From positions 1 to 58,219 of the forward strand of contig JAJXYE010000240.1 in the NCBI GenBank assembly GCA_021780735.1: 58,219 nt of DNA. Direction: 5' to 3'. This document shows positions 7,936 to 29,795 of the stretch, one piece after another. This DNA is from Pseudomonadota bacterium (GTDB lineage: Bacteria; Pseudomonadota; Gammaproteobacteria; Xanthomonadales; Rhodanobacteraceae). The notes below the pieces were generated by a model that saw only the letters and a program-made list of their open reading frames with translations, was not told the DNA's origin and did not search any database. Numbering within the stretch: position 1 is the first letter of the stretch; each line of letters opens with the position of its first letter. A program made the position numbers and the translations under genes.

Positions 7936-10842
7936 ATGCTACTCAAACGCAACCTGATGGCTCTGGCTTTGATTTCGGCTGGACTGTGCTGCACCGCCGT
8001 CGTATACGCAGCGCCAGCCGACACTGCCGCTCCGGCGACAGGCGCAGCGCAAGGCACGCAGGATCAGGCATCGCCGCAGGCTTCTGCCGACGGCAACAAG
8101 GCGGACGAAGTTCGACGCACCAAGGCCAAGAAACTTGCAGCCGTGCAGGTCACCGGTTTTCTCAGCAGTATCGAGAACTCCACGGCGATCAAACGCAACG
8201 CCGACAGCATTGTCGAGGCAGTCTCGTCCGAACAGATCGGCAAACTGCCCGGCACCAGTATTGCCGACGCGCTGGGCCGCTTGCCCGGCCTGGCCGTGCA
8301 GACAGTCAGCGGCCGCCCGCAGGCGATCAGCATTCACGGCCTGGGCGGGGACTTCTCCACCGCGCTGGTCAATGGCGCCGAACAGGTATCGACATCCAAC
8401 AACCGTGACGTGCAGTTCGACCAGTACCCCTCCAGCTGGTTCAACGCCGTCGTGGTGCACCTGAGCCCCCAGGCCAACCTCATCGGCCAGGGCCTGGCCG
8501 GCACGATCGACATGCAGACCATCCGTCCGCTCGAGAAGGACAAGGAAGAAGCGGCGGTCAACGCCCACTACATCTGGAACAGCGCATCCAAGCTCGCCAG
8601 TGGCCCCGGAGTACCGGACAAGGGCTACAACGTCAACGGCGTGTGGGTGAATCAGTTTGCCGATCACACACTGGGCGTCACCCTGGGTGTGGATCTGGAG
8701 TCCAGTCCGACGCAGATCGAGCACCAGGCACCCTGGGGCTACCCGACGGCTGCAGACGGCAACGTCGTGGTCGGCGGCTCGAAGAACTACGGCATCTCCG
8801 ACAACTGGAAGCGCCAGGGCCTGCTCGGCACCATTCAATGGCAGCCGAACGAGCACTACACCGGCACGATCGACATGACGTACGACAACTTCAGGGAAAT
8901 CCAGCAGGCCAAGGGCATGGAACTGCCGCTGTTCTGGGGCTCGGCCACACTGCAGCCCGGCGGCATCGTGCAGAACGGCCTGGTCACCCAGGGTATCTAT
9001 ACCAATCTGTCACCCGTCATCCGCAACGACTACAACAGCACCAAGGCGCGCGTCTACAACTTCAACTGGGACAACAAGTTCAAGATCAACGAGAACTGGT
9101 CGGTCGACCTGGTGGGCAACTACTCGCGCGCCACCCGTCGCGACGTCAATCTCGAGAGCTACTCGGGCAGCGGCTACAACAAGAGCGGTCCGCTCGGCAC
9201 GTTGAACTTCAACGAGCTCAGCAGTGGCTTGCTGTACGTCAACAATTCGGTCGACTACGGCAGCGGTGCCGTGCTGACCGACCCGCAGGGCTGGGGCGCG
9301 GGCAACAACGTGGTGCAAACCGGCTTCATCAACGCGCCGCACACGGTGGACTACCTGGCGAACCTCAAGCTCAGCGCCGAGCGTGATTTCATGAGCGGCC
9401 CGTTCTCCAGCGTCGAATTCGGCGTCGCCCAAAGTACCCGCAACAAGACCTACAACATCGATCAGAACTTCCTCACTCTTGGCGGCGGTCTGCTGGATCA
9501 GGGTGCCGTGCAGTCGCTGCCTTACACCGGCGGCACCTGCTCGCCGCTGTCCTGGATGGGGCTTGGCGCCCAGCCCTGCTACAACCCGCTGGCACTTATC
9601 GCCAACGGCACCTACACCGAGATCCCGGTGTTCATGTCCAGCCTGCCGTTGCCGCCGAACTGGAAGGTGCACGAGCGTGACACGACGCCTTACTTCCAGT
9701 TCAACCTGGACACCCAGCTGGGCAACGTGTCCCTGCGCGGCAACATCGGCATGCAGGCGGCCCGCACCCACCAGACCTCGACCGGCGAGCGCGTGGTTCC
9801 GGGCAGCTCCGTCACGGGAGGCCATACCGCACTGATTCCGGTCACCGGTGGCACCACGTACACCCGCTACCTGCCGAGCGCCAACCTGATCTTCGGCCTG
9901 ACCCCGGATGACGATATCCGCGTCAGTGCGGCCCGTACCATGGCACGTCCGCGCATGGATCAGATGAATGCCAGCCAGTCGATCAGCGGCAATATCACTT
10001 ACCTGGCCTCGACCAATCCGAGCCAGTCGTTCTTCAGTTCCTCCGGCGGCAATGCCAAGCTGATGCCGACCATGGCCGACAACTACAACGTCAGCTACGA
10101 GCATTATTTCTCGGGTGGTGCGTCGGGCTATCAGTGCAACGCATCCGACTCCAAGCAGTCCGATTTGTGCAAGGGCGGCGGTGGCGGCTACTTCGCCGTG
10201 TCGGGCTACTTCCTGGAACTGAAGGACTACATCAACCCGAACTCGGCCTACCTGTATGATTTCTCGGCCTTCATACCGTCCTACCTGACCCCCGCGCAGC
10301 AGACGCAGCTCGGCACCCCGCTGGGCATCGTCAGCGGCCCGACCAATGATGGCCACGGCTACGTGAAGGGCGCCCAGGTGACCCTGAACCTGCCTGCCAG
10401 CCTGATCACTCCGGTGCTCGACGGCTTCGGCACGATCCTCACCGTCAACCGCACCAAGAGCTCGCTGGTCTATGCCGGCAACAGCAACCCGATCACGGTG
10501 CCGGGTCTGTCGAAGTGGGTGGCCAACGGCACGCTGTACTACCAGCACAGCGGCTTCGAAGCCCGTATCAGCGACAGCTATCGTTCCAGCTTCCTGGGCG
10601 AGGTGTCCGGCATCAGTGCGTCGCGTATCGAGCAGACGCTCAAGGGCGGCAGCAGCTTCGATGCGCAGGTCAGCTACACCTTCGACCACGGCCCGCTGGA
10701 CGGCCTCACCCTCATTGCACAGGGCTCCAACCTGGGCAACAAGAAGTTCATCACCTACCAGAACAACGATCCGCGGCAGGTGCTGAACTGGGAGAGCTAC
10801 GGCCGCCGCTACGAAGTGGGTGTCTCCTACAAGTTCAAGTAA
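7936..10842 (+). CDS. TonB-dependent receptor 1, probably maltodextrin uptake
   Basis: GGGGAG RBS, signal peptide, VQVTG TonB-box region, plug (IADALGRLPGL), barrel ending YEVGVSYKFK. Substrate inferred from context. Confidence 0.93.
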   Translation: MLLKRNLMALALISAGLCCTAVVYAAPADTAAPATGAAQGTQDQASPQASADGNKADEVRRTKAKKLAAVQVTGFLSSIENSTAIKRNADSIVEAVSSEQIGKLPGTSIADALGRLPGLAVQTVSGRPQAISIHGLGGDFSTALVNGAEQVSTSNNRDVQFDQYPSSWFNAVVVHLSPQANLIGQGLAGTIDMQTIRPLEKDKEEAAVNAHYIWNSASKLASGPGVPDKGYNVNGVWVNQFADHTLGVTLGVDLESSPTQIEHQAPWGYPTAADGNVVVGGSKNYGISDNWKRQGLLGTIQWQPNEHYTGTIDMTYDNFREIQQAKGMELPLFWGSATLQPGGIVQNGLVTQGIYTNLSPVIRNDYNSTKARVYNFNWDNKFKINENWSVDLVGNYSRATRRDVNLESYSGSGYNKSGPLGTLNFNELSSGLLYVNNSVDYGSGAVLTDPQGWGAGNNVVQTGFINAPHTVDYLANLKLSAERDFMSGPFSSVEFGVAQSTRNKTYNIDQNFLTLGGGLLDQGAVQSLPYTGGTCSPLSWMGLGAQPCYNPLALIANGTYTEIPVFMSSLPLPPNWKVHERDTTPYFQFNLDTQLGNVSLRGNIGMQAARTHQTSTGERVVPGSSVTGGHTALIPVTGGTTYTRYLPSANLIFGLTPDDDIRVSAARTMARPRMDQMNASQSISGNITYLASTNPSQSFFSSSGGNAKLMPTMADNYNVSYEHYFSGGASGYQCNASDSKQSDLCKGGGGGYFAVSGYFLELKDYINPNSAYLYDFSAFIPSYLTPAQQTQLGTPLGIVSGPTNDGHGYVKGAQVTLNLPASLITPVLDGFGTILTVNRTKSSLVYAGNSNPITVPGLSKWVANGTLYYQHSGFEARISDSYRSSFLGEVSGISASRIEQTLKGGSSFDAQVSYTFDHGPLDGLTLIAQGSNLGNKKFITYQNNDPRQVLNWESYGRRYEVGVSYKFK

Positions 10843-10864: not shown

Positions 10865-10899
10865 AGCCCCGTTGAGTGAATTCAACGGGGCTTTTTTTT
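10865..10899 (+). terminator. Intrinsic terminator after TonB-dependent receptor 1
   Basis: AGCCCCGTTGA...TCAACGGGGCT followed by a long T run. Confidence 0.85.
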
Positions 10900-10954
10900 G
10901 ACAGGATCGTGGCGAACCGCTACTTGACTGCTTTCACCCAACTCGGACGCACAC

Positions 10955-12517
10955 ATGCAGGCCAACCCCATCCAGCAGGTGGTCATCGTCGGCGGCGGCA
11001 CCGCCGGCTGGATGACTGCCGCCCTGCTCGCCCGCGCGCTGGGGCCACAGGTGCAGATCCGGCTGATCGAGTCCGAAGAGATCGGCATCGTCGGCGTCGG
11101 CGAGGCCACCATCCCGTCCATTCGCCTGGTCAACCAGTTCCTTGGGCTGGACGAGGACGACCTGCTGCGCGCCACCCACGGCACCTTCAAGCTCGGCATC
11201 GAATTCAATGACTGGCGGCGGCTGGGCGATTCGTACATGCATGCCTTCAGTGACATCGGCCTGCCGCTGGGACTGATCGGCTTTCACCACTACTGGCTGA
11301 GGGATGTGCATGGACGCACGCAAGCCGCCAGCGCAGGACGCGCAGGAGCGGCTGATCGCCAGCGCGCCGGCGCAGCGGACCTGTGGGCCTACTCGCTCAA
11401 TGCGACGGCGGCACGGGCGCATCGTTTCGGCCGCATGGAGCGTGTCGGCAGCAGCCCGCTGACCGGTATCAAGTATGCCTACCAGCTCGACGCCTCCGCC
11501 TATGGCCAGTACCTGCGCCGCCATGTCGACCCAGCCATCGTCAAGCACATCGAGGGCAGGATCGTCGACGTGCAGCTGCGTGCCGGGGACGGCTTCATCG
11601 AGTCGGTGCAGCTGGCCAGCGGCGAACGCGTGGCGGGCGACCTGTTCATCGACTGCTCGGGCTTTCGCGGACTGCTGATCGAGGGCGCGCTGAAGACCGG
11701 TTACGACAACTGGCAGCAGTGGCTGCCGTGCGACCGCGCACTGGCGGTGGCCAGCGAACGGGTCGCGCCGATGCGGCCATACACCCAGGCCAGTGCACGC
11801 ACCGCGGGCTGGCAATGGCGCATCCCGCTGCAGCATCGCAACGGCAACGGCCATGTCTACTGCAGCCAGTTCCTCAGCGACGATGAAGCCAGCGCCCAGT
11901 TGCTGGCCAAGCTCGATGGCGAGCCGCTGGCCGACCCGCGCCAGCTGCAATTCACCACCGGCATGCGGCGGCAGTCGTGGCACCGCAACTGCGTGGCACT
12001 GGGGCTGTCGGCCGGCTTCATGGAACCGCTGGAATCGACCAGCATCCATCTGATCCAGTCGGGCATCAATCGACTGCTTGCGCTGTTTCCCGACCGCCAC
12101 TGCGATGTCGCACTCAGCACCGAGTACAACCGCCAGACACGCTTTGAATACGAGCGCATCCGCGACTTCCTGATCCTGCACTACAAGGCCACCGAGCGCG
12201 ACGACAGTCCGTTCTGGCGGCAATGCGCGCAGATGGCGATCCCCGAGTCGCTGGCGCGGCGCATTGCCCTCTTTCGCGGCAACGGCAGCATCTTTCGTGA
12301 TGCCGACGAACTGTTCACCGAGGTTGGCTGGATTCAGGTCCTGCTCGGCCAGGGTATCGAACCGGAACGCCATCACCCGCTGGCCGATGCGCTCGATCAG
12401 AGCCAGCTCGACGAATTCCTGGGCAATATCCGCAGCCTGGTCGGCCGCGCCGCCGACTCCTTGCCGCCGCACGAACGCTTCATTGCCGAACACTGCAAGG
12501 CGGCGACTGCGGCCTGA
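10955..12517 (+). CDS. Flavin-dependent halogenase (tryptophan halogenase family) 1
   Basis: [20 protein letters not shown] (catalytic Lys), [15 protein letters not shown]. Confidence 0.93.
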   Translation: MQANPIQQVVIVGGGTAGWMTAALLARALGPQVQIRLIESEEIGIVGVGEATIPSIRLVNQFLGLDEDDLLRATHGTFKLGIEFNDWRRLGDSYMHAFSDIGLPLGLIGFHHYWLRDVHGRTQAASAGRAGAADRQRAGAADLWAYSLNATAARAHRFGRMERVGSSPLTGIKYAYQLDASAYGQYLRRHVDPAIVKHIEGRIVDVQLRAGDGFIESVQLASGERVAGDLFIDCSGFRGLLIEGALKTGYDNWQQWLPCDRALAVASERVAPMRPYTQASARTAGWQWRIPLQHRNGNGHVYCSQFLSDDEASAQLLAKLDGEPLADPRQLQFTTGMRRQSWHRNCVALGLSAGFMEPLESTSIHLIQSGINRLLALFPDRHCDVALSTEYNRQTRFEYERIRDFLILHYKATERDDSPFWRQCAQMAIPESLARRIALFRGNGSIFRDADELFTEVGWIQVLLGQGIEPERHHPLADALDQSQLDEFLGNIRSLVGRAADSLPPHERFIAEHCKAATAA

Positions 12518-12598
12518 TCCGGTCGAAATGCATGTGGCGAGCGATCGCGACGAGGGCACCGCCTTCATCGCGACGGGCCGGAGTCGAGGTGCAAAGCG

Positions 12599-13168
12599 CT
12601 AGCGGGTGATGGCCGCGAGGTAGGTGTCGAGCATGGCCGGGTCGTGCTTGACGCCCCGCTCGGCGACAAGAATGGAGCGGGCGGCCGCATGTGTCCGGCC
12701 GGGATGGTACGGGCGGCTCGATGTCATGGCGTCATGACTGTCGGCCACCGACACGATCCGCGACAGCAGCGGGATCGCCTCGCCCTGCAGTCCATCAGGG
12801 TAGCCCGTGCCGTCCCAGTGCTCGTGATGGTGTCGCACGATGCGCGCGATCTCCTCGCGAAAAGGTATGTCGCGTTGATCGAGAATAAACCTCTCGCCGC
12901 GTGTGCTGTGCGTGCGCATGATGGCCCACTCGGCATCATTCAGCGCCCCGCGCTTGAACAGGATCGAATCGGGTAGATCGATCTTGCCGATGTCATGCAG
13001 CCGCGCGGCCATGGCAACGACCAGCAAGTCGTGCTGTTCGAGGTTGATCGCTTCGCCGAGTCGAACCGCCATCCTGGCAACGCGATCGCAATGCTGCGAG
13101 GTATGCCCGTCGCGCGCCTGCATGGCGCGATCAAGATGAGGAGCGATGCTGTAGATCCAGGAATCCAT
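12599..13168 (-). CDS. Stand-alone HD-GYP domain phosphodiesterase
   Basis: HCDRVA, LHDIGK, HHEHWDGTGYP, ADSHDAMTSSRPY. Start at MDSWIY is uncertain. Confidence 0.88.
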   Translation of the reverse strand: MDSWIYSIAPHLDRAMQARDGHTSQHCDRVARMAVRLGEAINLEQHDLLVVAMAARLHDIGKIDLPDSILFKRGALNDAEWAIMRTHSTRGERFILDQRDIPFREEIARIVRHHHEHWDGTGYPDGLQGEAIPLLSRIVSVADSHDAMTSSRPYHPGRTHAAARSILVAERGVKHDPAMLDTYLAAITR

Positions 13169-13340
13169 GGGCTGGCTGGCAGGCGGTCGTCTTGCGTGAT
13201 GGCTCCATGCCCGTGGTTCGTCATTGGCATGACGGCAGCTTCGACAGCAGGGTAGCTGACGCCGCGCGAGCTTAGTCGGTGGTGGCTGCCTTTGGAATAC
13301 GCCCGCGTCACATCGCGGCAAAAAACCGCGCTGTCGCGCG

Positions 13341-14843
13341 CTACGAAGGTGAGCGGCAGTGCCGGTCGATGTATTGCCTGTGCGTGGGCATGCCGCGCGC
13401 CGCCTCGGCAATCACCCGCCGCATGCCCTCAAGGCGTCCGGCCGCATCGACCTGGCTGCGCATGTCGGTCAGCGGATGGTATCGCTGCGGCCACACTTCC
13501 TGGCCCACCAGCACCGCCAGCCAGTTGGGGTTCTGGAACAGCTCCATGTCCTCGGCGACCAGCCGGCCGTATCGCCGGAAGTGCTCGATCTTGTATTGCA
13601 AGGTGTCCGGGATCGACATGCTCGAGGTCTGCCGCCACAGCGGCTCGTCGCGCTGCACTGCGTGATAGTGCAGGATCAGGAAGTCCCTGATGCGCTCGTA
13701 CTCCATTTGCGTGAGCCGGTTGTATTCCTGCGCCGCGAGCGGGTCGAAGTCGCGATCGGGGAACAGCGCCAGCAGGCGGGTGATGGCAGTCTGGATGAGG
13801 TGGATGCTGGTCGATTCCAGCGGCTCCATGAAGCCGGCCGAGAGGCCGATCGCCACGCAGTTGCGGTGCCATGACTGCTTGCGCCGCCCGGCGCTGAAGC
13901 GCAATTGCCGCGGCGACCCCAGCGGCTCACCGTCGAGATGGCGCAACAGCGTCGCGGTGGCCTCGTCGTCACTGATGAACTGGCTGCAGTAGACGTGACC
14001 ATTGCCCATTCGGTGCTGCAGCGGAATACGCCACTGCCAGCCGGCCGCGTGCGCCGTGGAGCGGGTGAAAGGCGTCAACTCGCTGTGGTGAGTGCAGGCC
14101 ACCGCCACCGCGCGGTCGCAGGGCAGCCAGTGGGTCCAGTCCTCATGGCCGGTCTTCAGCGCGCCCTCGATCAGCAGGCCACGAAAACCCGAGCAGTCAA
14201 TGAACAGGTCACCCTCAACGTCCGCGCCACTGTCCAGCCTTGCGGCATGGATGAAACCGTCGTCTCCGCGCAGGGTGACGTCAACCACCTTGCCCTCGGT
14301 TCGCCGGACACCACGTTGCTCGGCGTACTGGCGCAGGAAACGCGCATAAAGGCTGGCGTCGAAGTGATAGGCGTAATCGTGGGAAGACTGCACCTGGCGG
14401 CGATCGGCCACCGGCAGATCGAACTTGCCAGCCTGGGCAGCCACCCAGGCCAGTGCGTAGTCCTGCAGCGGCGTAACGTCACCGCGTTCGCGCTCGCGCA
14501 GCCAGTAGTGGTGCAGTGGCACGGCGTCGAACTCGCTGCCGAACTGGCCGAACGGATGAAAGTAGCGTTGCCCGACACGGGTCCAGTCAACGAACTCGAT
14601 ACCGAGCTTGAAGGTTCCCTGGGTCGCCGCAAGGAAGGCATTCTCGTCGATGCCCAGGCTGCGATTGAAATACTTGAGCGGCGGGATGGTGGCCTCGCCC
14701 ACGCCGACGATGCCGATCTCCTCCGACTCGATCAGCTCGATCTGGCAGCTGCCTTGCAGCGCGTTGGCCAGCGCGGCCGCCGTCATCCAGCCGGCCGTGC
14801 CGCCACCCACGATGATGATGCGACGGATATTCTGCTCAGTCAT
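13341..14843 (-). CDS. Flavin-dependent halogenase (tryptophan halogenase family) 2
   Basis: [35 protein letters not shown]. Close paralog of halogenase 1. Confidence 0.93.
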
Positions 14844-15098
14844 GTCGCGATTCCTTCGATAAGCACAACCGGGTCTCCGTGCACCACCTGGGAATCAGCT
14901 TCGACATGATATTGAGACCTTTGGGCTGCATGATATCTACAGGAACTGCGCGAAATTCCATCATGCGACTCTCTGAATAACCGCACGACTCATCACCGTG
15001 CCACTGCGCGCGACCTTGCCAACAAGCGTAACCGACACCGTTGCCCTGACAGCGCAAACACCTTGCGTCGCAGCATGGAAAAGTGTCCACATGCGCAA

Positions 15099-15112
15099 TG
15101 AATACGTATGCA
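15099..15112. promoter_or_regulatory. LacI-type operator A, copy 3
   Basis: TGAATACGTATGCA in the divergent halogenase 2 / amylase intergenic region. Confidence 0.8.
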
Positions 15113-15240
15113 GAAACCGGTCGTCGAGCGGGCCATCGACCTACTATGAAACCAGCACGAAATCGAATCGGCGCAGTGCTGGATTACCACGCCCGCACAA
15201 CGTCGCGCATGCCAAGATCCTCTGACAAACGGGAGTCACG

Positions 15241-16814
<1,574 letters not shown>

Positions 16815-16818
<4 letters not shown>

Positions 16819-19196
16819 TGGCGCCGATCCGCAGCGTCGCACTGTCGCTGGCACTCGGCATGATCGTGTCGGCGTCACCGGCTCATGCCGGCACCCAGCC
16901 CGGCCAGCCCCGCAGTACCAGAACCGCCGTCCACACGGGCGCCCATGGTCATGGCCTCACCATCGCGATGGGTAGCGATCGGGTGCAGGTCGACCTGATG
17001 ACGGCGAATATCGTGCGGATCCACTTCGAACCGGCGGGCGTCAGCAGCCCGCCCACGTTGCTGATGGATCCGCATGCCGCGCGACCGACGCGGAACGGGC
17101 AACGGGTGAAGCGCGCGGTTGGCGGCGAAGAGCTGGTATCGAACAGTGCCCGGGTGCATTGGGATCGACACACCGGCGTGCTGCACGTCGATGACGCGCA
17201 GCATCACCCGTTGCTTGCGCTGAACCTGCCGGCCTTGCAGCATGGCCAGTTGCAACTGCAACACCATGCCGGTGACGCGCTGTATGGCATCGGCGGCTAC
17301 AACGCCACCGAGAATGTCGATGCCGGGCTGTTGCGCCAGGGCGTCATGCAGGCCGAGTCCGGCGAGCAGGGCCATGCCGGCGCGCCGCTGGTGTGGAGTA
17401 CCGCCGGCTATGGTGTGCTGGTGGACACCCTCGGTGGCAAGTTCGCATTGACCGGTGATTCGATCACCGTCTCCGCCACGTCGCGCAAGGACATCGACTG
17501 TTACGTCGTGCTGGGCACGCCGGCACGGATCTTCGCCGCGGTGGCGAGACTGAGCGGGCATACACCGCTGTTTCCGAAATGGGCGATGGGATTCACCAAC
17601 AGTCAGTGGGGCATCGATCAGAAGGAGCTGCTGACGATCGTCAACACCTATCGCGCCAGGCACATCCCGATCGACAACTTCACGCTCGACTTCGACTGGA
17701 AGGCCTGGGGTGAGGACAACTACGGCGAGTTCCGCTGGAATTCGCAAAAATTTCCCGACGGGCCCGATGGAAAGCTGGCCGCGCAGCTGCATGCATTGGG
17801 CATGCAGATCACCGGCATCATGAAGCCCCGACTGCATTTCGACACGGTCGAGGGTCGTTACGCCACCAGCCACGACTTCTGGGTACCCGGCGAGAAGGCC
17901 AGCTTCGACTATTTCTCGCACAAGCTGGTAAAGAACATCGACTTCGACATTCCTGCCGCGCGCCACTGGTTCGGTGGCCTGGCGTTGAAGTACGGCTTCG
18001 ACGACGGCATCGCCGGCTGGTGGAATGACGAGGCGGACACGACCGGCAGCGATACCGAATTCATGAACATGCAGCGCGCGCTTTACGACGCGCAGCGCGC
18101 GGCATCGGACGTACGCGTGTGGTCGATCAACCGCAACTTCTACCTCGGCTCCCAGCGCTATGCCTACGGGCTCTGGTCCGGAGACATCCCGACCGGCTTC
18201 GCCAGCATGGCGGGGCAACGCGCACGCATGCTCAGCGCAATCAACGTCGGGGCCATGCAATGGGGCATGGATGGCGGTGGATTCACCGGCCACCCGAGCG
18301 ACGAGAACTACGCGCGGTGGATCGAGTTCGGTGCTTTCACGCCGATCTTCCGCGTGCACGGGGTGCTCAACGAGAAGCGTCAGCCGTGGGTCTATGGCCC
18401 GGTGGCGGAAAAGGCGGCCAGCGCTGCGATCCGCCTGCGCTACGCGCTGATCCCCTACATCTACAGCTACGAGTACCAGCGCCATGTCGATGGCGTCGGT
18501 CTGGTGCGGCCGCTGCTGTTCGACTGGCCGCATGATCCCAGGGTGGCCAACGACGTCGACAGCTGGCTGTTCGGCAGGTACCTGCTGGTCTCGCCCGTGG
18601 TGCAACAGGGCCAGACCCGCAAGGACATCTACCTGCCTGCCGGGCGATGGTCCGACTGGTTCAGCGGCAAGGTGTACCAGGGTGACGAGGACATCCAGCT
18701 GGCGCTTGACAGCAAGGGCTGGGGCGACATCCCGCTGTTCGTGCGCGATGGCGCGATCATCCCGCTGCAGCCGGTGATGGATTACGTCGGGGAGAAGCCG
18801 GTGACCGAGCTCGCGGTCGAGGTGTTCCCTTCCGACCGGCGCAGCACGTTCGATTACTACGACGACGACGGCAGCACTTACGCCTATGAACACGGCGCGT
18901 ATTTCAGACAGACCCTGGCGACACAGAACCACGCGAACTCGGTGCAGTTCGATATCGGCGCCGTCAGCGGCACGTTCAAGCCGGCGTTGCGTTTCTATCT
19001 GCTGAAAATCCACGGCCGTCCCGCCAGCAGCGTGATCGTCAATGGCAAGCCACTGGCATCGCGTGACAGCCTCGGTGTGCTGCAACAGGGCGGCAGCGAG
19101 GGTTGGGCCAGCGGCCATGATCGTTTTGGCGCCGTCACTTACGTACGGATCGCGGCCGCTGCGGCGAAGACTGTCTTGCTGGCACCGGCGCGCTGA
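16815..19196 (+). CDS. Secreted GH31 alpha-glucosidase/transglucosylase
   Basis: Signal peptide, LDFDW, nucleophile WWNDE, acid/base WSGD, FRVHG. Translationally coupled to the amylase. Confidence 0.9.
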
Positions 19197-19429
19197 CGCA
19201 CGGATCCGGCTCCAGGCATCGGCTCCGCCATGGCGCGAGCCGATGTTCGATGATCACGCTGGCCAGGAGCCCGATCAGTCGCCCGCGCTGTTTTGTCTAT
19301 GCCGAATCGGCCCGAATGCCGGGCCGGCATCAACGGGACGCCCGCGCTTGGGCCCTGCGTGCCCCACAGCTCATGCCATGCTGCACGCAGGCCAGGGCTT
19401 TCGCCTTGACCTGCACATCGCTCCGCGCG

Positions 19430-21205
19430 TCAGTAACCGGCGGCCAGGCCCGCGGGACGGCGCCGATCGTTGGCACCCTCCAGCAAACCGGTCTCCGGGT
19501 TGACCAGGATCGCCTCATCCGCGCCCCACGACTTGACCGCCTTGAAGTGGTGGCCCATGCCCTCAAGCTTGCGCTGTGCCGCCGCCGTCAGCAAACCGGG
19601 CTCGACGAATACCTGATCGGGCAACCACTGCTCGTGCAGGCGCGGCGCATCCACCGCCTGCTGCATGTTCATGCCGAACTCGGCCACGTTGAGGAAGCTC
19701 TCCAGCGTGGTGGAGATGATGGTGGAGCCGCCCGGGCTGCCGGTGACCATGAACAGCTTGCCGTCGCGCAGCACGATCGTCGGCGACATCGAGCTCAGCG
19801 GACGCTTGCCCGGCTCGATCTGGTTGATCCTGCCTTGCACCAGGCCGAAGGAATTGGGCACACCGGGCTTGGAGGTGAAGTCATCCATCTCGTTGTTGAG
19901 GAAGAAGCCGGTATCACCGGCGATCTGACCGACGCCGAACAGGTAGTTGATGGTGTAGGTCACCGCAACGGCGTTGCCATGCTGGTCGACCACCGAGTAG
20001 TCCGTGGTGTTGGTGCCTTCGACCGGGCCCAGGCTGCCCTTGATCTCGGACGACGGGGTGGCCTTGTCCGGCTTGATGGTCGCGCGCATCGCGGCCACAT
20101 GCTGCGGCGACAGCAGTTTGTCTATCGGGTTCTTCACGAAGGCCGGATCACCGAGGTAGGTGTTGCGGTCGGCGAAGGCGCGGCGCTCGGCCTCGATCAT
20201 GGTGTGCACGCTGTTGACCGAGCCATAACCCCACTGGGCCAGCGGATACGGTTTGAGAATCTGCAGGATCTGGCAGATGGTGGTGCCGCCGGAGCTGGGC
20301 GGCGGATCGGAGACGATGGTGTAGCCGTGGTAGTCACAGCTGACCGGCTTGTCCCAGGTCACCGAGTAGTCGGCAAAATCCTTCATCGACAGGATGCCGC
20401 CCTGCGCCTGGCTGGCCGCCACCACCTTGCGCGCGATGCTGCCGCGATAGAAGGCGCGGGCGCCGCCCTTCTCGATCAGTTCCAGCGTGTGTGCCAGCTG
20501 CGGCTGGCGCAGGCGATCACCCACCACGTAAGGTTTGCCATGGTTGAGGAAGGTCGCCGCCACATTCGGGTACTTGGCGAAATCCTTGACCCGCTCGTTG
20601 AGGATGTTGATGTCACCCTGCTGCAGCACGAAACCGTCGCGGGCCAGTTTGATCGCCGGTGCGATGACCTGCTGCAGTGGCATGCTGCCGTACTTCTTCA
20701 GCGCGGCATCCATGCCCATCACGGTGCCGGGCACGCCGACCCCGAGATAGCTGCCGGTGCTCTTGCCCGGAATCACGTTGCCGCTGGCATCCTGATACAT
20801 GGTGGGAGTGGCTTTCAGAGGCGCCTTTTCGCGGAAGTCCAGGAACAGGTTCCTGCCATTGGCCAGGTGCACCACCATGAAGCCGCCACCGCCGATATTG
20901 CCGCAGCACGGATGCACCACGGCCAGCGCGTACCCCACGGCCACCGCGGCATCCACCGCATTGCCACCCTGCTTGAGGATGTCCACCCCGACCTGGCTGG
21001 CCAGGTGCTGCGCGGAAACCACCATGGCGTGCTTCGCGGTAACCGGCATCGCCTTGGCCAGCGCGGCCATCGTGGTGGGGGCGGCGGTGGCGTCGAGCGC
21101 CTGCCGGGGAATTTTGTGCCGGGCCGACGAAGACTGGGCTGCCCACGTCGCTGGCGTCGCGGCGAGGATGGCGATCGCCACCCATGCTGGGAATGCGTTG
21201 CGCAT
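19430..21205 (-). CDS. ggt: Gamma-glutamyltransferase
   Basis: GGNAVDAAVA, DFREKAP, catalytic TT, NNEMDDF, PLSSMSPT, GSPGG. Signal peptide from MRNAF (21205). Confidence 0.93.
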   Translation of the reverse strand: MRNAFPAWVAIAILAATPATWAAQSSSARHKIPRQALDATAAPTTMAALAKAMPVTAKHAMVVSAQHLASQVGVDILKQGGNAVDAAVAVGYALAVVHPCCGNIGGGGFMVVHLANGRNLFLDFREKAPLKATPTMYQDASGNVIPGKSTGSYLGVGVPGTVMGMDAALKKYGSMPLQQVIAPAIKLARDGFVLQQGDINILNERVKDFAKYPNVAATFLNHGKPYVVGDRLRQPQLAHTLELIEKGGARAFYRGSIARKVVAASQAQGGILSMKDFADYSVTWDKPVSCDYHGYTIVSDPPPSSGGTTICQILQILKPYPLAQWGYGSVNSVHTMIEAERRAFADRNTYLGDPAFVKNPIDKLLSPQHVAAMRATIKPDKATPSSEIKGSLGPVEGTNTTDYSVVDQHGNAVAVTYTINYLFGVGQIAGDTGFFLNNEMDDFTSKPGVPNSFGLVQGRINQIEPGKRPLSSMSPTIVLRDGKLFMVTGSPGGSTIISTTLESFLNVAEFGMNMQQAVDAPRLHEQWLPDQVFVEPGLLTAAAQRKLEGMGHHFKAVKSWGADEAILVNPETGLLEGANDRRRPAGLAAGY

Positions 21206-21605
21206 GCTGGTCACTCTGCAAATGCGGGTGATGGAAAGGCGGGTCGGAACGCGAAGTTCGCTGCCGAGGTGGCAATTGTGCCGGAGTAGCACGCGTCACT
21301 GAAGGCGAACGGCAATAATCCGGTGTGCGGCAGGACACCGTGGCACTGCCTGGAGCTGCTGCTCTTCTCCACATTGACGCGGTAGCAACTTGCCCAGCGC
21401 ACATCCACATCGGTGCCAGGTTCCACCGCACACCCTTTCCCATTTCTGCAAGAATACGCCCTGCTCTGGCCGGGACTCCTGGCGCTGCACGACGACTGCC
21501 GCGAGGATTTCGACGCAGCGCATCAGGTCACCGTCTGACACGTTGCCATCTGAACCGTGACGTTATTCATCAAGCGCCATCAAACCAGACCAAGGATCCG
21601 CACCC

Positions 21606-22505
21606 ATGCGTCAGCCGTTGAACCTGTCAGGCCCTTCCCTGCGCCTGATCATTCCCGCCATCGTGCTTGTGGTGCTGCTGTCCGGCTCGTTCTTCGTGGT
21701 GCCGCCGAACCAGATGGCGGCGATTCGCTGGATGGGTGGTACTGTCACGACCGCGCAGCCGCTGGGCACCGGCGTTCACTTCAAGGTGCCGCTGTTGGAG
21801 CAGGTCGACTATCTGCAGACCTCGCAGTCGACTTATCAGTTGCCCGAGCTGTCGGTGTACACCAACGACAACCAGGCCGTGGCCATTTCCATTTCGGTGA
21901 TTTACCAGGTGCCCGCCTCCGCCGTGCTGCACTTGCTGTATGACGTCGGCCGTGCGGGCAACACCGATATTGACGCCACCATCGTGCCGGTCGTGCGCGA
22001 TCGCGCGCTGGCGGTTTTCGCCAAATACAACACCTTGAACATCTCGGACTCGCGGGCGCAGATCACCGAGCAGATGAAAAAGGAAATCGCCGAGGCGCTC
22101 GGGCGCCTGTTCGGCATCAACGTGGTCGATGTGCAGCTCACGTCGATCAAGTATTCACCGGTGTTTTCCGAGTCGGTGGAGAACGCGGTCAAGGCCAAGG
22201 CGCAGGCGGTGCAGGCGGAAAACACCGTGCTGCAACGCAAATACGAAGGCCAGCAGAAGACCGTTACCGCGCAGGCCGAGGCGCAGGCCAAGATCGAGCA
22301 GGCCAAGGGCATCGCCGAGTCCAACGTGCTGGAGGCGACCGCCCAGGCCAAGGCCATCCAGATGGTCGGCCAGGCCCTGCAGGCCAATCCGCAGTACACC
22401 CGCTTCTACGCCACCCAGCACTGGAACGGCATCCTGCCGCAATACGTCGGTGGCAGCGGCGCCGTACCGTTCGTGGACATCGGCGGCAAGGGTGCCAGGC
22501 AATAA
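21606..22505 (+). CDS. SPFH/Band-7/prohibitin family membrane protein
   Basis: N-terminal TM, GVHFKVP, Ala/Glu/Gln coiled coil, WNGILP. Confidence 0.88.
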   Translation: MRQPLNLSGPSLRLIIPAIVLVVLLSGSFFVVPPNQMAAIRWMGGTVTTAQPLGTGVHFKVPLLEQVDYLQTSQSTYQLPELSVYTNDNQAVAISISVIYQVPASAVLHLLYDVGRAGNTDIDATIVPVVRDRALAVFAKYNTLNISDSRAQITEQMKKEIAEALGRLFGINVVDVQLTSIKYSPVFSESVENAVKAKAQAVQAENTVLQRKYEGQQKTVTAQAEAQAKIEQAKGIAESNVLEATAQAKAIQMVGQALQANPQYTRFYATQHWNGILPQYVGGSGAVPFVDIGGKGARQ

Positions 22506-22647
22506 CCCGGGCTGCCGTCGCCGGACTCGCCGCGCCTTGCCTGACGGGCGCGGCCTTGGCGAAGTGAGGACGCAAGGCTCGATGCCACCGGCAATTCCGC
22601 AGGCGTCGGAGGCGCCGCTGTGCTGACTCGGCGCCGCGCCGTGTCAT

Positions 22648-24240
22648 TCAGCCCTCCGTCGCCGCCGTCCGCTTCACCGCCATCGGCTGGCGTTGTGCAT
22701 GTTCCCGGCACAACTGCTCGACCAGGGCACGATGATCCGGCAAGTCGTTCAGTGCATGGCCGGCCACCTGCCGGATCATCGAAAATTCGCGGCGTGCGGA
22801 GTCCATCTGCGGATAGGCGCTGCGCATGGGTTGCAGATCGGTCTTGAACTCCATGCCGTAGAGCACGTACTGCCAACTGGCCGGCATGAACATTTCCAGG
22901 TCGGTGACGAAGTCCAGCCGATGTGGCGGCCTGTGCCGCCACAGCGCCAGCCGTTCCTGCAGGGTTGCGGGAATGCTCGCCGGATCCGTATTGTCGACCC
23001 AGAAAGCCGAGTCGCGCCGCTGTGACAGGCAGTAGTGCATCTTGATGAAGTCGATGATGCGCTCGTAGCGCGCCACCATCATTTCATTGAACTTCCGGGC
23101 CGTGCCTTCCATCTCGTCGTGATCGCCAGGCATGAGGTGGGTGAGCATATAGGCGGCCAGTTCGATCAACGCGATGCCGGTCGATTCCAGCGGTTCGACG
23201 AAACCGCCGGCCAGTCCGATCGCGACGCAGTTCTTGCGCCAGTGCTCCGGTCGGTAGCCCGTCTCGAACTTCAGCTGGAGGGCCTGCAATCCGTTGGCGG
23301 CCGGACCGACATAGCGCCGCACCACCTCTTCCGCCCGCGCCTCGTCGCTGTGCCTGGACGAGTACACGTAACCGATGCCCCGCCGCTGCTGAAGTCCGAT
23401 ATCCCAGATCCAGCCGGCTTCCTGCGCGGTGGATCGGGTGAATGGCAGGATCGGCGAGTCCGCCTGAGGATAGGGCACCTGCAGGGCAACGGCGCGGTCG
23501 GCGAACAACACATCGCGCCGGCTGCGGAACGGCGACTGCATGGCGTTGCCGATCAGGCTGCCGCGCAGGCCGGTGCAGTCCACGTAGAGGTCGGCCGACA
23601 GCGCGCCAAGCTCGGTGGTGACGATACGCTCGATCGCACCGTGCTCGTCCAGTTCGGCGCGCTCGACCGTGGCCAGGTGGCGTTTCACGCCGAGGCTCTG
23701 ACCATGTTCGGCCAGGGTTGCCGCGAAGCAGGCGGCATCGAAGTGATAGGCATGATTCAGCGGCCCCTGGTAATCGGGATCGGTGGCACGCTTGGGTGCC
23801 CGCCCGTGATCGATGACGTGCGTCTGCATCGTTACCGCCTCGGCAAACGAGACGCCCTCGGGGGCGCCGCCGAGCAGCCAGTAAGGCAGCAATTCGGGGC
23901 TGCCGCCGCGCTGACTGGGCGTGCTGAACGGGTGGAAGAAGCGATCCGCTCCCGGCGCCCCCGGCGGCCGCACCCAGTTGACGTACTGGATGCCCTGTTT
24001 GTAGGTCGCGGTTGCGCCGACCAGGAATCGCCGTTCGTCCAGGCCGATGGCCGCCAGGGTGCCACGGATCGATGGAAAGGTGGCTTCGCCGACACCGAGC
24101 AGGCCGATGTTGGCCGACTCGACCAGTTCAACCTGGATGCTTTCCGCGGCGGCGCTGTTCAAGGTTCTGGCCAGATAGCATGCCGTCAGCCAGCCGGCGG
24201 TGCCACCGCCCACGATCAGAATCTTCTTTATGCGTGACAT
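22648..24240 (-). CDS. Flavin-dependent halogenase (tryptophan halogenase family) 3
   Basis: GGGTAG, GVGEAT, TYKQGI, WIWDIG, FVEPLESTG. Confidence 0.92.
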   Translation of the reverse strand: MSRIKKILIVGGGTAGWLTACYLARTLNSAAAESIQVELVESANIGLLGVGEATFPSIRGTLAAIGLDERRFLVGATATYKQGIQYVNWVRPPGAPGADRFFHPFSTPSQRGGSPELLPYWLLGGAPEGVSFAEAVTMQTHVIDHGRAPKRATDPDYQGPLNHAYHFDAACFAATLAEHGQSLGVKRHLATVERAELDEHGAIERIVTTELGALSADLYVDCTGLRGSLIGNAMQSPFRSRRDVLFADRAVALQVPYPQADSPILPFTRSTAQEAGWIWDIGLQQRRGIGYVYSSRHSDEARAEEVVRRYVGPAANGLQALQLKFETGYRPEHWRKNCVAIGLAGGFVEPLESTGIALIELAAYMLTHLMPGDHDEMEGTARKFNEMMVARYERIIDFIKMHYCLSQRRDSAFWVDNTDPASIPATLQERLALWRHRPPHRLDFVTDLEMFMPASWQYVLYGMEFKTDLQPMRSAYPQMDSARREFSMIRQVAGHALNDLPDHRALVEQLCREHAQRQPMAVKRTAATEG

Positions 24241-24307
24241 CTCGCCCTCTCATGGCTTGTTGCTCCGCAGCAAGCTTATCGCGGAAATTCGCAGTAGGAT
24301 CGGCCAA

Positions 24308-24343
24308 TGACAGCGCTGTCATGAAAGTATGACAGCGCTATCA
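24308..24343. promoter_or_regulatory. Tandem LacI-type operator B (two copies)
   Basis: TGACAGCGCTGTCA (24308-24321, perfect palindrome) and TGACAGCGCTATCA (24330-24343) between divergent halogenase 3 and receptor 2. Confidence 0.82.
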
Positions 24344-24389
24344 TCGACAGACTAATGCATGATCACGACGAATTGGGGAGAGGGTGAAA

Positions 24390-26813
24390 ATGAAACTACG
24401 TTACTCCGCACTGTACATGGCCATGACTGCCGTACTGGCCTCGGGCGCTGTTCACGCAACGGGGCAAGATGCAGATTCGGCGCCGAAGAATGCCCACGCT
24501 GGCGACAAGGTCAAGACCCTGGCGACCATCCAGGTCACCGCAACCAAGCGCGAGACGCCGCTGCAGAAAACCGGCATCGCGATTACCGCGATCGGCGGCG
24601 ACACGCTCGACAAGGAACGCGTCATGACCGTGCAGGACATCACCAAACTGGTGCCTGGCCTGCAGGGCACGTCCGAAGGTGATCATGGCGTCGTCACCCT
24701 CACCTTGCGCGGCATCGGCAACGACAGTGCCAAGACCGAGTATGCCGACCCCGAAGTTGCCACCTTCGTCGACGGCGTGTACGCCCCCCGCGCCGAAGCA
24801 GCCTCCAGCCTGCTGCTTGACATGGATAGCGTGGAAGTACTGCGTGGCCCGCAGGGCACGCTGTGGGGTCGAAATTCCACCGCGGGTGCGATCAGCTTCA
24901 CCACCATGAAGCCGGACATCAATGGCGGTTTCAACGGCAGTGGCACGATCGAGGCCGGCAACTACAACCAGAGTGGCGTGCGAGCAGCAGTGAACCTGCC
25001 AATCAGCAGCACTTTCGCCATGCGAGTTGCCGCCGCGCACGAGCAGCACGATGGCTACGTCAACTATCAGAATCCGATAGGCCAGATTCCGTCGGTGGCG
25101 CAGCAGCAGGCGAACTATCTCGCCTCCGGCGGCACCCTGGCGACCTTCCAGCCGATCGATACGAACCTGTTCGTGCAGCGGGGCAAGAAATACGACGCGC
25201 AGGATCAGACCGCCTACCGCGTGAGTGCGCGCTGGAAGCCCAGCGACAACTTCCTCTGGGATCTGTCGTACGAGGATTTCCAGGATCGCGGCACGCCCAG
25301 CATGAACCTGATGCAGCACCCGCGCCCGGGCCAGGACTTCTGGTCGGCTTTGATCGACACCGCGCCCTACCTGGATCGCAACTCCAGGTCGGTGCGCAGC
25401 CGCATGGACTGGACCATCAACGACGACATGGAGTTGACCTACACCGCCGGCTACAACCGCTACTCGGGCAAAAGCGACTTCGACCAGGATGGCGGCGTGA
25501 ATGTGCCGACCAGCTTCACCACCGGCGGCTCGCACCAGGAAGACCGCACCAACTTCTCCAACTACGTCAGCTCCAGCCACGAGTTCGATCTGAAATCCAC
25601 CGGCCAGAAGACCGTAGACTGGATTCTCGGCGCCTACTACGAGCATGAAAACAACAACATCCGCTTCGATATCCCGATCATGAACGGCACCCAGCAGGGC
25701 ACGGTGGGTTGGCAGGGTTCGTTCATCCAGCCGGAGGAGCTGGTGACCTCGACCGCTGCGTTCGGTCAGGCAACCTGGCACATGAGTGACAGCTGGCGCC
25801 TTACCGGTGGCGCACGCTGGTCGCACGACAAGCGCCAGAACAGGGGCGGCATCAACTGGGGCTGGGGCTACGATCCGACCTACCCGCAGGTACCGATTTC
25901 CCCCGGCGAGCAGCCAGGCGACGCTGGTTTCACCATCAGCCAGCGCAACGATGCGACGTACAGCAAGAGCAAGCCGACCTGGCTGATCCGGCTGGATCAC
26001 GACCTCGGCGCGGATGGCCTGATGTATGCCAGCGTCTCCACCGGCTACAAGTCAGGCGGCACCCAGGACGGAGGCGCGCTGTACAAGCCGGAGACGCTGA
26101 CCAACTACGAAGTCGGCGCGAAATTCTCGTTTCTGGACGGTCATCTGACCTGGAACAGCGCGGCCTACTACGAGGTCTTCAAGAACTACCAGCTGTCGGC
26201 ACCGATCACCTATTCGAACGGGAACCACGGCCTCGGCTTCGTCAACGTGGGTGGCGAGACCAAGGTCGCAGGCTTTGAATCGGAGTTCGCCTACCAGCAG
26301 GCCAACGATCGCGCCAACCTGATCCTGTCGGTGATCCCCAAGAAGAAGCTCGGCACCGAGAAGTACGCCGGCAGCAACGACTACTACATCGCCACACCCT
26401 GCCCGGCCGGCGCTCCGCTGGGTGTCAGCAACTGCGCGGATATCTCGGGCAACGACCTGCCGCATGCACCGAACCTGTCGCTCACCGCGATCTACGAACA
26501 TGACTTCGTGCTGGGCAATGGCGGCCGCCTGACCCCGCGCCTGAGCGCCCAGTACCAGAGCGCGCAGTGGTTGAGCTGGTTCAACTTCGGTGCCGGCGAC
26601 CAGCAGAAGGCCTATGCCCGCGGCGACCTGTCGTTGCGCTACACCGAGCCAAACGACAAGTGGTACGTGAACGCCTACGTGCAGAACGTGACCAACGACA
26701 AGATCAAGAGCAGTGCCGCGGGCAGTACCTTGCTGGCCAATGGCAGCGTGGTATTCACCTCCCAGTACCTGCCGCCACGCACCTACGGCGTGCAGTTCGG
26801 ATTCTGGTTCTAG
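24390..26813 (+). CDS. TonB-dependent receptor 2, probably beta-glucan oligosaccharide uptake
   Basis: Signal peptide, IQVTATKRE, EVLRGPQGTLWGRNSTAG, terminal FGFWF. Substrate inferred from GH3/LacI context. Confidence 0.93.
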   Translation: MKLRYSALYMAMTAVLASGAVHATGQDADSAPKNAHAGDKVKTLATIQVTATKRETPLQKTGIAITAIGGDTLDKERVMTVQDITKLVPGLQGTSEGDHGVVTLTLRGIGNDSAKTEYADPEVATFVDGVYAPRAEAASSLLLDMDSVEVLRGPQGTLWGRNSTAGAISFTTMKPDINGGFNGSGTIEAGNYNQSGVRAAVNLPISSTFAMRVAAAHEQHDGYVNYQNPIGQIPSVAQQQANYLASGGTLATFQPIDTNLFVQRGKKYDAQDQTAYRVSARWKPSDNFLWDLSYEDFQDRGTPSMNLMQHPRPGQDFWSALIDTAPYLDRNSRSVRSRMDWTINDDMELTYTAGYNRYSGKSDFDQDGGVNVPTSFTTGGSHQEDRTNFSNYVSSSHEFDLKSTGQKTVDWILGAYYEHENNNIRFDIPIMNGTQQGTVGWQGSFIQPEELVTSTAAFGQATWHMSDSWRLTGGARWSHDKRQNRGGINWGWGYDPTYPQVPISPGEQPGDAGFTISQRNDATYSKSKPTWLIRLDHDLGADGLMYASVSTGYKSGGTQDGGALYKPETLTNYEVGAKFSFLDGHLTWNSAAYYEVFKNYQLSAPITYSNGNHGLGFVNVGGETKVAGFESEFAYQQANDRANLILSVIPKKKLGTEKYAGSNDYYIATPCPAGAPLGVSNCADISGNDLPHAPNLSLTAIYEHDFVLGNGGRLTPRLSAQYQSAQWLSWFNFGAGDQQKAYARGDLSLRYTEPNDKWYVNAYVQNVTNDKIKSSAAGSTLLANGSVVFTSQYLPPRTYGVQFGFWF

Positions 26814-29739: not shown

Positions 29740-29795
29740 GTGATCACTCCAGGCTGATGCGCAGGCAATGCGCGGAAGTCGCAGAGTGACACAAA

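What the first reader, a model, noticed from the sequence alone, without database searches (positions are those of the whole stretch)
10955..26813. Candidate novel system: three intact flavin-dependent halogenases wired into two sugar-uptake regulons
Seen: halogenase 1 follows receptor 1, halogenase 2 shares a divergent promoter and operator A with the amylase/GH31 operon, and halogenase 3 shares tandem operator B with receptor 2. All keep GxGxxG, the catalytic Lys and FxEPLEST. No flavin reductase, NRPS/PKS or prnBCD-like genes occur in the window. Established: PrnA/RebH-family enzymes need FADH2, and related enzymes from Xanthomonas and Brevundimonas (BrvH) halogenate indole-type substrates rather than tryptophan in vitro. 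Such genes are known to neighbour TonB receptors, but I know of no established native role. Inference: each glucan-import module carries its own halogenase-fold enzyme, induced by the sugar. Options are making a halogenated signal or antagonist when a food patch is found, modifying aglycones released by the glycosidases, or a non-halogenating reaction or sensing role on sugar-linked substrates.
Basis: partly seen in the sequence, partly recalled or inferred. Interest (0 to 1): 0.82.

Follow-up and report, generated by a model that had tools for sequence, protein, structure and literature searches.

The report
Halogenases riding with glucan uptake receptors
Three intact halogenase genes do sit beside two sugar-uptake receptor genes and their predicted sugar-responsive switches, but the pairing is widespread and has been in print since 2007-2010; the enzymes follow the receptor rather than the sugar and likely modify a peptide or protein tied to it, a target that remains unshown.

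Summary
Observation confirmed. H1, H2 and H3 are full-length, under purifying selection, and keep GxGxxG, the Lys and FxEPLEST; H3 has WIWDIG in place of WxWxIP. They belong to the BrvH/Xcc4156/2PYX group, not the tryptophan halogenases. Both operators are real. The system is not new: halogenases appear in maltose and xylose receptor loci in Blanvillain 2007 (Fig. S2) and in Iyer 2010, and this scan has reported the cassette in at least eight other findings. Added here: H1 follows 37 of 42 MalA-type receptors, and H3 adjoins 26 of 30 receptor-2 orthologs, staying put after an inversion. Halogenase trees track the receptor (10 of 15 splits shared), not the sugar (r=0.11, not significant), and one receptor+halogenase pair crossed classes without glycosidases. 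H2's wiring is weaker: operator A is fixed to the amylase gene, and 10 of 21 H2 orthologs examined lie elsewhere without it; yet all 19 genomes with H2 (of 121) carry MalA and H1. GlcNAc, trehalose and mannoside receptors lack halogenases. Best reading: dispensable, receptor-linked accessory halogenases, likely acting on a peptide or protein. The substrate is unshown.

The parts
5860..7482 (-). GH13 alpha-glucosidase-like gene, divergent from receptor 1
   Evidence: PF00128
7576..7589 (.). Operator A copy (predicted site of the maltose-locus LacI repressor)
   Evidence: conserved in relatives
7768..7781 (.). Operator A copy upstream of receptor 1
   Evidence: also found before maltose receptors of Alishewanella and others
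7936..10842 (+). Receptor 1: MalA-type TonB-dependent receptor (TIGR01782)
   Evidence: MalA assignment inferred from neighbours and Blanvillain 2007
10865..10900 (+). Intrinsic-terminator-like hairpin plus T run between receptor 1 and H1 (predicted expression step-down)
   Evidence: hairpin+T5 in 29 of 63 direct receptor-halogenase pairs
10955..12517 (+). H1: flavin-dependent halogenase of the BrvH/Xcc4156 type, 520 aa
   Evidence: follows 37 of 42 MalA orthologs
12599..13411 (-). HD-GYP phosphodiesterase gene downstream of H2 (true start probably near 13170)
   Evidence: same place in G011, G007, G024
13341..14843 (-). H2: second halogenase, 500 aa, of the 'second halogenase' clade of maltose/GH32 loci
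15099..15112 (.). Operator A between H2 and the amylase operon; position fixed relative to the amylase
15241..16818 (+). GH13 alpha-amylase (SusG-like C-terminus)
16815..19196 (+). GH31 glycosidase
22648..24240 (-). H3: halogenase of the 2PYX/9LU2/9LTB type, 530 aa, WIWDIG motif
   Evidence: adjacent to 26 of 30 receptor-2 orthologs
24308..24343 (.). Tandem operator B (24308-24321, 24330-24343), overlapping a predicted -35/-10 pair for receptor 2, 68 bp from the H3 start
24384..26813 (+). Receptor 2: TonB-dependent receptor of a different subfamily, in the beta-glucoside locus
27172..29835 (-). GH3 beta-glucosidase, with operator B at 29796
29860..30873 (-). LacI-B, predicted BglR-type repressor of operator B
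   Evidence: operator B lies between LacI-B and GH3 across relatives; assignment inferred
31179..37330 (+). Rest of the maltose regulon: six-hairpin glycosidase, MFS transporter, GH13, sulfotransferase; operator A at 30991
37778..38866 (-). LacI-A, predicted MalR-type repressor of operator A
   Evidence: co-occurs with operator A in maltose loci; assignment inferred
38993..40579 (-). Sugar porter (GlcP-like) with operators A (40484) and B (40582) upstream

Best explanation
These are intact BrvH/Xcc4156-type flavin-dependent halogenases inherited together with glucan-uptake TonB receptors as dispensable accessories, likely switched on with the receptor by the sugar and likely halogenating an aromatic side chain of a peptide or protein tied to the receptor rather than free tryptophan or the sugar. 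Steps. Shown: intact genes, operators, co-inheritance with the receptor, independent losses. Inferred: maltodextrin lifts LacI-A from operator A, the receptor mRNA is made, and H1 is made at a lower level by read-through of the hairpin; beta-glucosides lift LacI-B from the tandem operator B, so receptor 2 and H3 are made from back-to-back promoters; H2 acts in trans with H1 and need not be under operator A. Inferred from family knowledge: FADH2 comes from a housekeeping reductase, and FAD, O2 and halide give HOX, which the Lys delivers to a substrate in an open cleft. Guessed: the substrate is the receptor precursor or a partner in its uptake machinery, met in the cytoplasm.
For: H1 follows 37 of 42 MalA orthologs. 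H3 adjoins 26 of 30 receptor-2 orthologs, 19 downstream and 7 inverted to divergent. Halogenase and receptor trees share 10 of 15 supported splits (shuffles at most 3), including an 11-member clade mixing Caulobacter beta-glucoside and betaproteobacterial maltose loci. L238 holds a receptor 72-79% identical, and a halogenase about 71% identical, to betaproteobacterial loci L091/L102 with no glycosidase or LacI near. Halogenase distance does not track sugar class. The H1 model matches Xcc4156 and BrvH best (TM 0.92 and 0.90); their site is open, they do not take free tryptophan, and the authors propose peptides (Widmann 2020). No Trp4-like motif in H1-H3. In other loci the partners are cupin_8/JmjC, SapC, DUF6445 and 2OG oxygenases. 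In 12 relatives the amylase has no operator of its own and depends on the receptor promoter; in those inspected (for example L024, L032, L033, L034, L038) the same hairpin lies between receptor and H1, so read-through is likely.
Against: No receptor residue tracks the halogenase: 5 receptors lacking an intact adjacent H1 keep their Trp/Tyr pattern, and no aromatic column separates 55 halogenase-linked from 20 unlinked TIGR01782-type receptors. The receptor-halogenase correlation is not significant across classes alone (r=0.22, p=0.135), and many shared splits are kin pairs. H3 is on a separate transcript here, H2 is often far away, and in G063 H1 moved with the amylase, not the receptor, so strict cis action is unlikely. 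The H7 type and standalone H2 have no receptor near (5 of 13 halogenases in three complete genomes). Receptors are exported, so the window for cytoplasmic modification is short (general knowledge). No expression or activity data.
Confidence: 0.35

Rival explanations
1. Sugar-triggered synthesis of a diffusible halogenated small molecule (indole-type signal or antagonist); each regulon has its own copy only to be switched on by its own sugar.
For: BrvH and the Xcc enzymes halogenate indoles in vitro. H3 stayed under operator B after inversion. Paralogs are recruited to several regulons in one genome. A sulfotransferase ends the maltose operon here and an HD-GYP gene follows H2.
Against: It does not explain co-divergence with the receptor or transfer of a bare receptor+halogenase pair. 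No exporter, reductase or tailoring gene is conserved beside the halogenases. No halogenated product was known from the BrvH organism (Neubauer 2018).
Confidence: 0.2
2. The enzymes act on what the receptor imports: aglycones or aromatic co-cargo released by the glycosidases.
For: Tracking the receptor could equally mean tracking its cargo. All 4 glycosidase-linked receptors in this genome have a halogenase and 0 of 28 others do.
Against: Starch and maltodextrin carry no aglycone (general knowledge), yet maltose loci are the commonest hosts in the sample. No correlation with sugar class. Pairs occur without glycosidases (L238, L108, L111). H1 was lost or moved repeatedly from intact maltose loci.
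Confidence: 0.15
3. The fold serves a non-halogenating redox, sensing or scaffold role (O2, halide or flavin-redox sensing that tunes uptake), with H1 and H2 possibly forming one complex.
For: A 15-member clade lacking the Lys, WxWxIP and FxEPLEST persists in tandem arrays of alphaproteobacterial loci. H2 occurs only with H1/MalA in 19 of 19 genomes. Na+/H+ antiporter and O2-using oxygenase genes recur in the loci.
Against: All three window enzymes, and 176 of 200 full-length homologs by strict pattern, keep the Lys that is essential for halogenation in BrvH.
Confidence: 0.17
4. The linkage is only historical: the genes ride in mobile sugar islands and do an unrelated job.
For: H2 orthologs left the locus at least twice and survive without operator A. 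Cross-class tree correlation is not significant.
Against: Adjacency persists across three proteobacterial classes and at least three receptor subfamilies (45 of 58 long loci within 500 bp). It survives inversion. Other sugar receptors in the same genomes carry none.
Confidence: 0.1

Closest known systems
Halogenase genes in carbohydrate-utilisation (CUT) loci, Blanvillain et al. 2007 (PMC1790865), Fig. S2
   Same: The maltose panel labels tryptophan halogenase genes in the loci of Caulobacter (CC2287 malA region), Novosphingobium, Maricaulis, Sphingopyxis, Pseudoalteromonas and Erythrobacter (two copies); the XCC2828 receptor locus has SapC, Pass1-related and halogenase genes.
   Different: The main text never mentions them (0 hits for 'tryptophan') and offers no function; the X. 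campestris maltose locus has no such label. The receptor-2/H3 pairing was not in the part I read (part 1 of 3).
Conserved neighbourhood JOR/JmjC + one to three tryptophan halogenases + TonB receptor + SapC, Iyer et al. 2010 (PMC2938197)
   Same: Receptor plus 1-3 intact halogenases in alpha- and gammaproteobacteria. The full cassette lies on contig C39 of this same genome (L001).
   Different: The window has the minimal form without SapC or JmjC. Iyer predicted a halogenated siderophore; here receptor 1 is TIGR01782, not a siderophore type, and sits in a glucan regulon.
BrvH (PDB 6FRL), Xcc4156 (6Y1W), Pseudoalteromonas sp. L11 halogenase (9LUQ)
   Same: Best sequence and fold matches of H1 and H2 (45-49% identity, TM 0.89-0.92). 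Same catalytic motifs, open site, unknown native substrate.
   Different: Activity of H1 and H2 is untested; those enzymes prefer bromide in vitro.
PDB 2PYX, 9LU2, 9LTB halogenases
   Same: Best matches of H3 (E 3e-127 to 3e-111); 2PYX shares WIWDIG.
   Different: I found no function for them. That 2PYX is from Shewanella frigidimarina is recalled, not from a call.
Tryptophan halogenases PrnA, RebH, PyrH, Thal
   Same: Fold, FAD motif, Lys and FxEPLEST.
   Different: Only 29-33% identity to H1; no tryptophan-binding loop motif; no partner reductase or biosynthetic cluster.

Membership tests
Flavin-dependent halogenases (PF04820) | Full-length profile match and fold | tested here: met
Flavin-dependent halogenases (PF04820) | GxGxxG, catalytic Lys, FxEPLEST | tested here: met
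   all three
Flavin-dependent halogenases (PF04820) | WxWxIP motif | tested here: inconclusive
   met in H1 and H2; H3 has WIWDIG, like 2PYX and its clade
Flavin-dependent halogenases (PF04820) | Halogenation activity with FADH2, O2 and halide | not testable with these tools
   needs an assay
Tryptophan halogenases (PrnA/RebH/PyrH) | Substrate-binding loop (Trp4 motif) closing over free tryptophan | tested here: not met
   no Trp4-like motif by pattern (motif table); closer to BrvH and Xcc4156
Tryptophan halogenases (PrnA/RebH/PyrH) | Biosynthetic cluster with partner flavin reductase | tested here: not met
   none among the window ORFs scanned; no PF01613 or condensation domain found in the 87%-complete genome
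BrvH/Xcc4156-type indole halogenases | Closest sequence and structure relatives; short loops | tested here: met
   H1 and H2; H3 is closer to 2PYX
BrvH/Xcc4156-type indole halogenases | Halogenate indole but not tryptophan; prefer bromide | not testable with these tools
   needs an assay
Iyer 2010 receptor/halogenase/SapC/JmjC neighbourhood | TonB receptor with 1-3 intact halogenases | tested here: met
Iyer 2010 receptor/halogenase/SapC/JmjC neighbourhood | JmjC/cupin_8 and SapC genes in the locus | tested here: not met
   absent from the window, present on C39; the window is the minimal receptor+halogenase form
Proteobacterial CUT locus (Blanvillain 2007) | TonB receptor, glycosidases, inner-membrane transporter and LacI regulator clustered | tested here: met
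Proteobacterial CUT locus (Blanvillain 2007) | Induction by the cognate sugar | not testable with these tools
   no RNA holder listed; induction of XCC2469 by maltose is published

The most novel reading that the evidence does not exclude
Proteobacterial sugar receptors come with dedicated protein-halogenating enzymes: H1 with H2, and H3, halogenate the receptor precursor (or its uptake machinery) in the cytoplasm, a post-translational mark that masks it from phages and bacteriocins or tunes uptake to oxygen and halide supply. This would give the large BrvH/Xcc-type halogenase group its first native substrate.
Probability: 0.15. Interest if true: 0.9.

Novelty: new member of a known kind. Interest (0 to 1): 0.4.

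Why it matters
The native substrate of BrvH/Xcc4156-type halogenases is stated to be unknown (Widmann 2020), although the genes are common: 79 of 121 family genomes have a full-length copy. This locus does not solve that, but it narrows the search. The conserved partner is the receptor, not the sugar; the enzymes are dispensable for the catabolic locus; and H2 depends on the H1/MalA unit even when relocated. That points experiments at receptor-linked protein or peptide modification and at H1-H2 cooperation, and it supplies natural knockouts and cultured models such as the Caulobacter malA locus. As a discovery it is modest: the pairing is published and this scan has met it many times.

Tried and rejected
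Expression: no RNA holder listed. Three same-study RNA assemblies laid on 7400-27300 gave mostly short, partial matches under 95% identity, probably from other organisms; not usable either way. Complex prediction of H1 with receptor 1 residues 1-205: 'no answer', score 0.00, controls not folded; not evidence. Receptor-as-substrate signature: none found. Sugar-specific halogenase clades: rejected (r=0.105, p=0.156; cross-class r=-0.20). Siderophore reading of Iyer 2010: not supported for receptor 1 (TIGR01782). A conserved small partner gene beside standalone H2: none beyond close kin. A degenerate operator A before standalone H2: best matrix scores all negative in 10 of 10, against at least 18.7 for true sites. 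Tandem operator B as a mark of divergent control: rejected, since tandem sites also occur where H3 lies downstream. Literature: ten searches found no paper giving a native role or an expression study of these genes. The library lacks most subscription papers. Fisher 2019 was not held; the Xanthomonas xylan-locus work of Dejean 2013 is recalled only (one search found nothing). Rodionov 2010 text and six supplements have no 'halogenase' and no operator sequences, so the names MalR and BglR for the two LacI proteins are inferred.
Full report
1. Observation. The window is contig C345 of a 3.57-Mb, 87%-complete genome; a Rhodanobacter-like gammaproteobacterium is my inference from its relatives. 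H1 (10955-12517 +), H2 (13341-14843 -) and H3 (22648-24240 -) are full PF04820 matches. All have GGGTAG, the Lys and FxEPLEST; H3 has WIWDIG for WxWxIP. dN/dS of 0.10-0.20 shows purifying selection. Operator A has 5 genome-wide copies at up to one mismatch, all in the window; operator B has 5, four in the window and one on C39. Exact copies are expected about 0.004 and 0.013 times per genome. No reductase, NRPS or PKS family was hit in the 74 of 220 ORFs scanned. The genome has no PF01613 or condensation match but four PF03358 and four PF00970 matches that could include a housekeeping flavin reductase.

2. The rest of the genome. There are seven halogenases. One follows a third receptor in a LacI/GH144/GH1/ABC locus (C181); two lie in a receptor-halogenase-SapC-cupin_8-halogenase-LacI-GH3 cassette (C39); one has no receptor or sugar gene near (C32). 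Of 32 receptor matches, 4 have a glycosidase within 8 kb and all 4 have a halogenase; none of the other 28 does (Fisher p=3e-5). Many contigs are short and my glycosidase queries were limited. In three complete relatives, 8 of 76 receptors adjoin a halogenase: 7 of 18 sugar-type (LacI within 10 kb, or MalA; counted by hand) against 1 of 58 others. Receptors beside GH20, GH65, GH92 or GH2 genes had none. The link is real but not universal.

3. H1. Among 121 family genomes, 42 have a receptor-1 ortholog at 50% identity or more, and 37 are followed by a halogenase within 2 kb. The five others: one split across contigs (G130, where L172 shows H1 then H2), one broken (G151), one moved with the amylase (G063), two cleanly lost (G158, G055); G017 is a further clean loss. 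The five receptors without an intact adjacent H1 fall on separate branches, so H1 is dispensable for the maltose locus. A 12-bp stem plus T8 lies between receptor and H1; 29 of 63 direct pairs have such a feature. In 12 relatives the amylase has no operator closer than the receptor promoter, so read-through is the likely route.

4. H2. Operator A at 15099 lies 228-310 bp from an amylase anchor codon in 10 loci but 129-1528 bp from H2. It also precedes the amylase in five loci without H2. An Na+/H+ antiporter gene lies between operator and H2 in L169, and similar DNA does in L012 and L020, so a divergent regulated operon is not excluded. Of 21 H2 loci examined, 11 are in the maltose locus and 10 stand alone without operator A; these 10 form two separate clades nested among maltose- and GH32-locus copies that reach Kordiimonas, Algimonas and Erythrobacter. 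Yet all 19 genomes with H2 among the 121 also have the MalA receptor and H1, which 38 of 121 have (7 genera, kin not independent). One genome from another draw, G007, has H2 at a contig edge and lacks the whole receptor-H1 segment: an exception or an assembly gap.

5. H3. Of 41 receptor-2 orthologs I inspected the best 30: 26 have H3 within 1.5 kb, 19 downstream on the same strand (one a fragment) and 7 divergent as here; 4 have none. The divergent layout is probably derived, and H3 stayed beside operator B. The tandem sites overlap the only promoter-like match in the region scanned, pointing at receptor 2 (3.5 such matches are expected by chance, so this is weak).

6. Across proteobacteria. 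The best 80 of 660 confirmed loci from named genomes (ranked by likeness to H1, so biased) span alpha-, beta- and gammaproteobacteria. Of the 58 loci of 15 kb or more, 51 hold a receptor, 48 sugar genes, 44 both, and 45 have a halogenase within 500 bp of a receptor (ORFs were filtered by composition, so some genes were missed, and L130 later proved to hold a receptor). Hosts include maltose, xylan, beta-glucoside, GH144, GH32 and GH92 loci with up to five tandem halogenases. For 34 genus-thinned pairs, halogenase distance correlates with receptor distance (r=0.46, p=0.001) and with class (0.32) but not with sugar type (0.105, p=0.16). For 26 TIGR01782-type pairs r=0.425 (p=0.005), within maltose loci 0.42, across classes only 0.22 (p=0.135); 10 of 15 supported splits are shared, against at most 3 in 2000 shuffles. 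No host tree was used, so part of this is kinship. The mixed 11-member clade and locus L238, a bare receptor+halogenase pair closest to betaproteobacterial ones, are the clearest signs that the pair is the unit.

7. Mechanism. H1 folds like Xcc4156, 9LUQ and BrvH (pLDDT 91; TM 0.89-0.92); H2 matches the same three best by sequence and H3 matches 2PYX. The proteins begin directly with the Rossmann motif, so they are cytoplasmic. Widmann 2020 reports an open site, no activity on free tryptophan and a possible peptide substrate (passages). Together with receptor tracking and JmjC/2OG partners elsewhere, this makes a receptor-linked peptide or protein substrate my best reading (0.35). Against it, no receptor aromatic residue tracks the halogenase, and H2, H3 and the moved H1 of G063 cannot act strictly in cis. 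Rivals: small-molecule signal 0.20, non-halogenating or sensing role 0.17, cargo/aglycone 0.15, hitch-hiking 0.10.

8. Prior knowledge. Blanvillain 2007 (passages; supplement search and part 1 of 3 of Fig. S2 read as text without layout) shows halogenases in six maltose loci and in the XCC2828 locus. Its Shewanella panel places one near Sfri_1314, which Rodionov 2010 lists as bglR (supplement search). Iyer 2010 (passages) describes the receptor/halogenase/SapC/JmjC neighbourhood and predicts a siderophore. Neubauer 2018 and Jeon 2021 were seen as passages; two preprints seen as passages added nothing. Supplements of papers I could not see may hold regulon or fitness data. Eight earlier notes of this scan describe the same cassette in other genomes; none was returned for this locus's relatives or for the maltose wording.

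9. Verdict. Real, conserved and still unexplained, but a new member of a known arrangement. Interest 0.40; the most novel reading, receptor halogenation, has probability about 0.15.

Noticed in passing
L114:5787-7469, L135:7244-8986, L073:6000-7454, L081:4516-5961 and 11 more: A 15-member clade of halogenase homologs lacking the Lys, WxWxIP and FxEPLEST, mostly in tandem arrays of alphaproteobacterial receptor loci.
   Followed up: partly
L238:5907-10764 (G148): Receptor+halogenase pair closest to Rugamonas/Duganella/Massilia loci, between acyl-CoA dehydrogenase and RF3 genes with no sugar genes: likely a two-gene horizontal transfer.
   Followed up: partly
L001 (G000:C39): Full receptor-halogenase-SapC-cupin_8-halogenase cassette with a LacI-B paralog (69%), operator B and GH3/GH39 in the same genome.
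   Followed up: partly
L002 (G000:C181) 8344-18854: Third glucan module: LacI, a different receptor subfamily, halogenase, GH144-like gene, ABC transporter and GH1, conserved across the genus.
   Followed up: partly
L003:7093-8700 (G000:C32); L042, L046, L050, L052, L053: A halogenase clade with no receptor or glycosidase near, in varied neighbourhoods.
   Followed up: no
window 38993-40595: The GlcP-like porter has both operator A and operator B upstream, joining the two regulons.
   Followed up: no
window 36590-37330: A Sulfotransfer_4 gene ends the maltose operon; also in G008, with related matches in L199 and L205.
   Followed up: no
L069, L074, L094, L169, L193, L197, L199, L203: An Na+/H+ antiporter gene recurs in maltose receptor loci, sometimes upstream of H2 and divergent from the amylase across operator A.
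   Followed up: partly
window 12599-13411; L176-L180: An HD-GYP gene follows H2 in four genomes of the genus, and GGDEF or HD-GYP matches lie near several standalone H2 copies; this may be chance.
   Followed up: no
L189:7458-8717 (G151); L057:9206-10897 (G004): Broken H1 and broken H3 in otherwise intact sugar loci.
   Followed up: no
L085, L125: Four halogenase ORFs between a Gfo/Idh/MocA, xylose-isomerase-like, gluconate-dehydrogenase-subunit block and a receptor.
   Followed up: no
phage collection: 66 records carry distant homologs, mostly cyanophages and pelagiphages at about 30% identity beside 2OG oxygenases; two unannotated 'Bacteriophage sp.' records at 52% may be bacterial DNA.
   Followed up: no
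window 278-2761: VTT-domain/pyridine nucleotide-disulphide oxidoreductase fusion; not a flavin reductase family.
   Followed up: no
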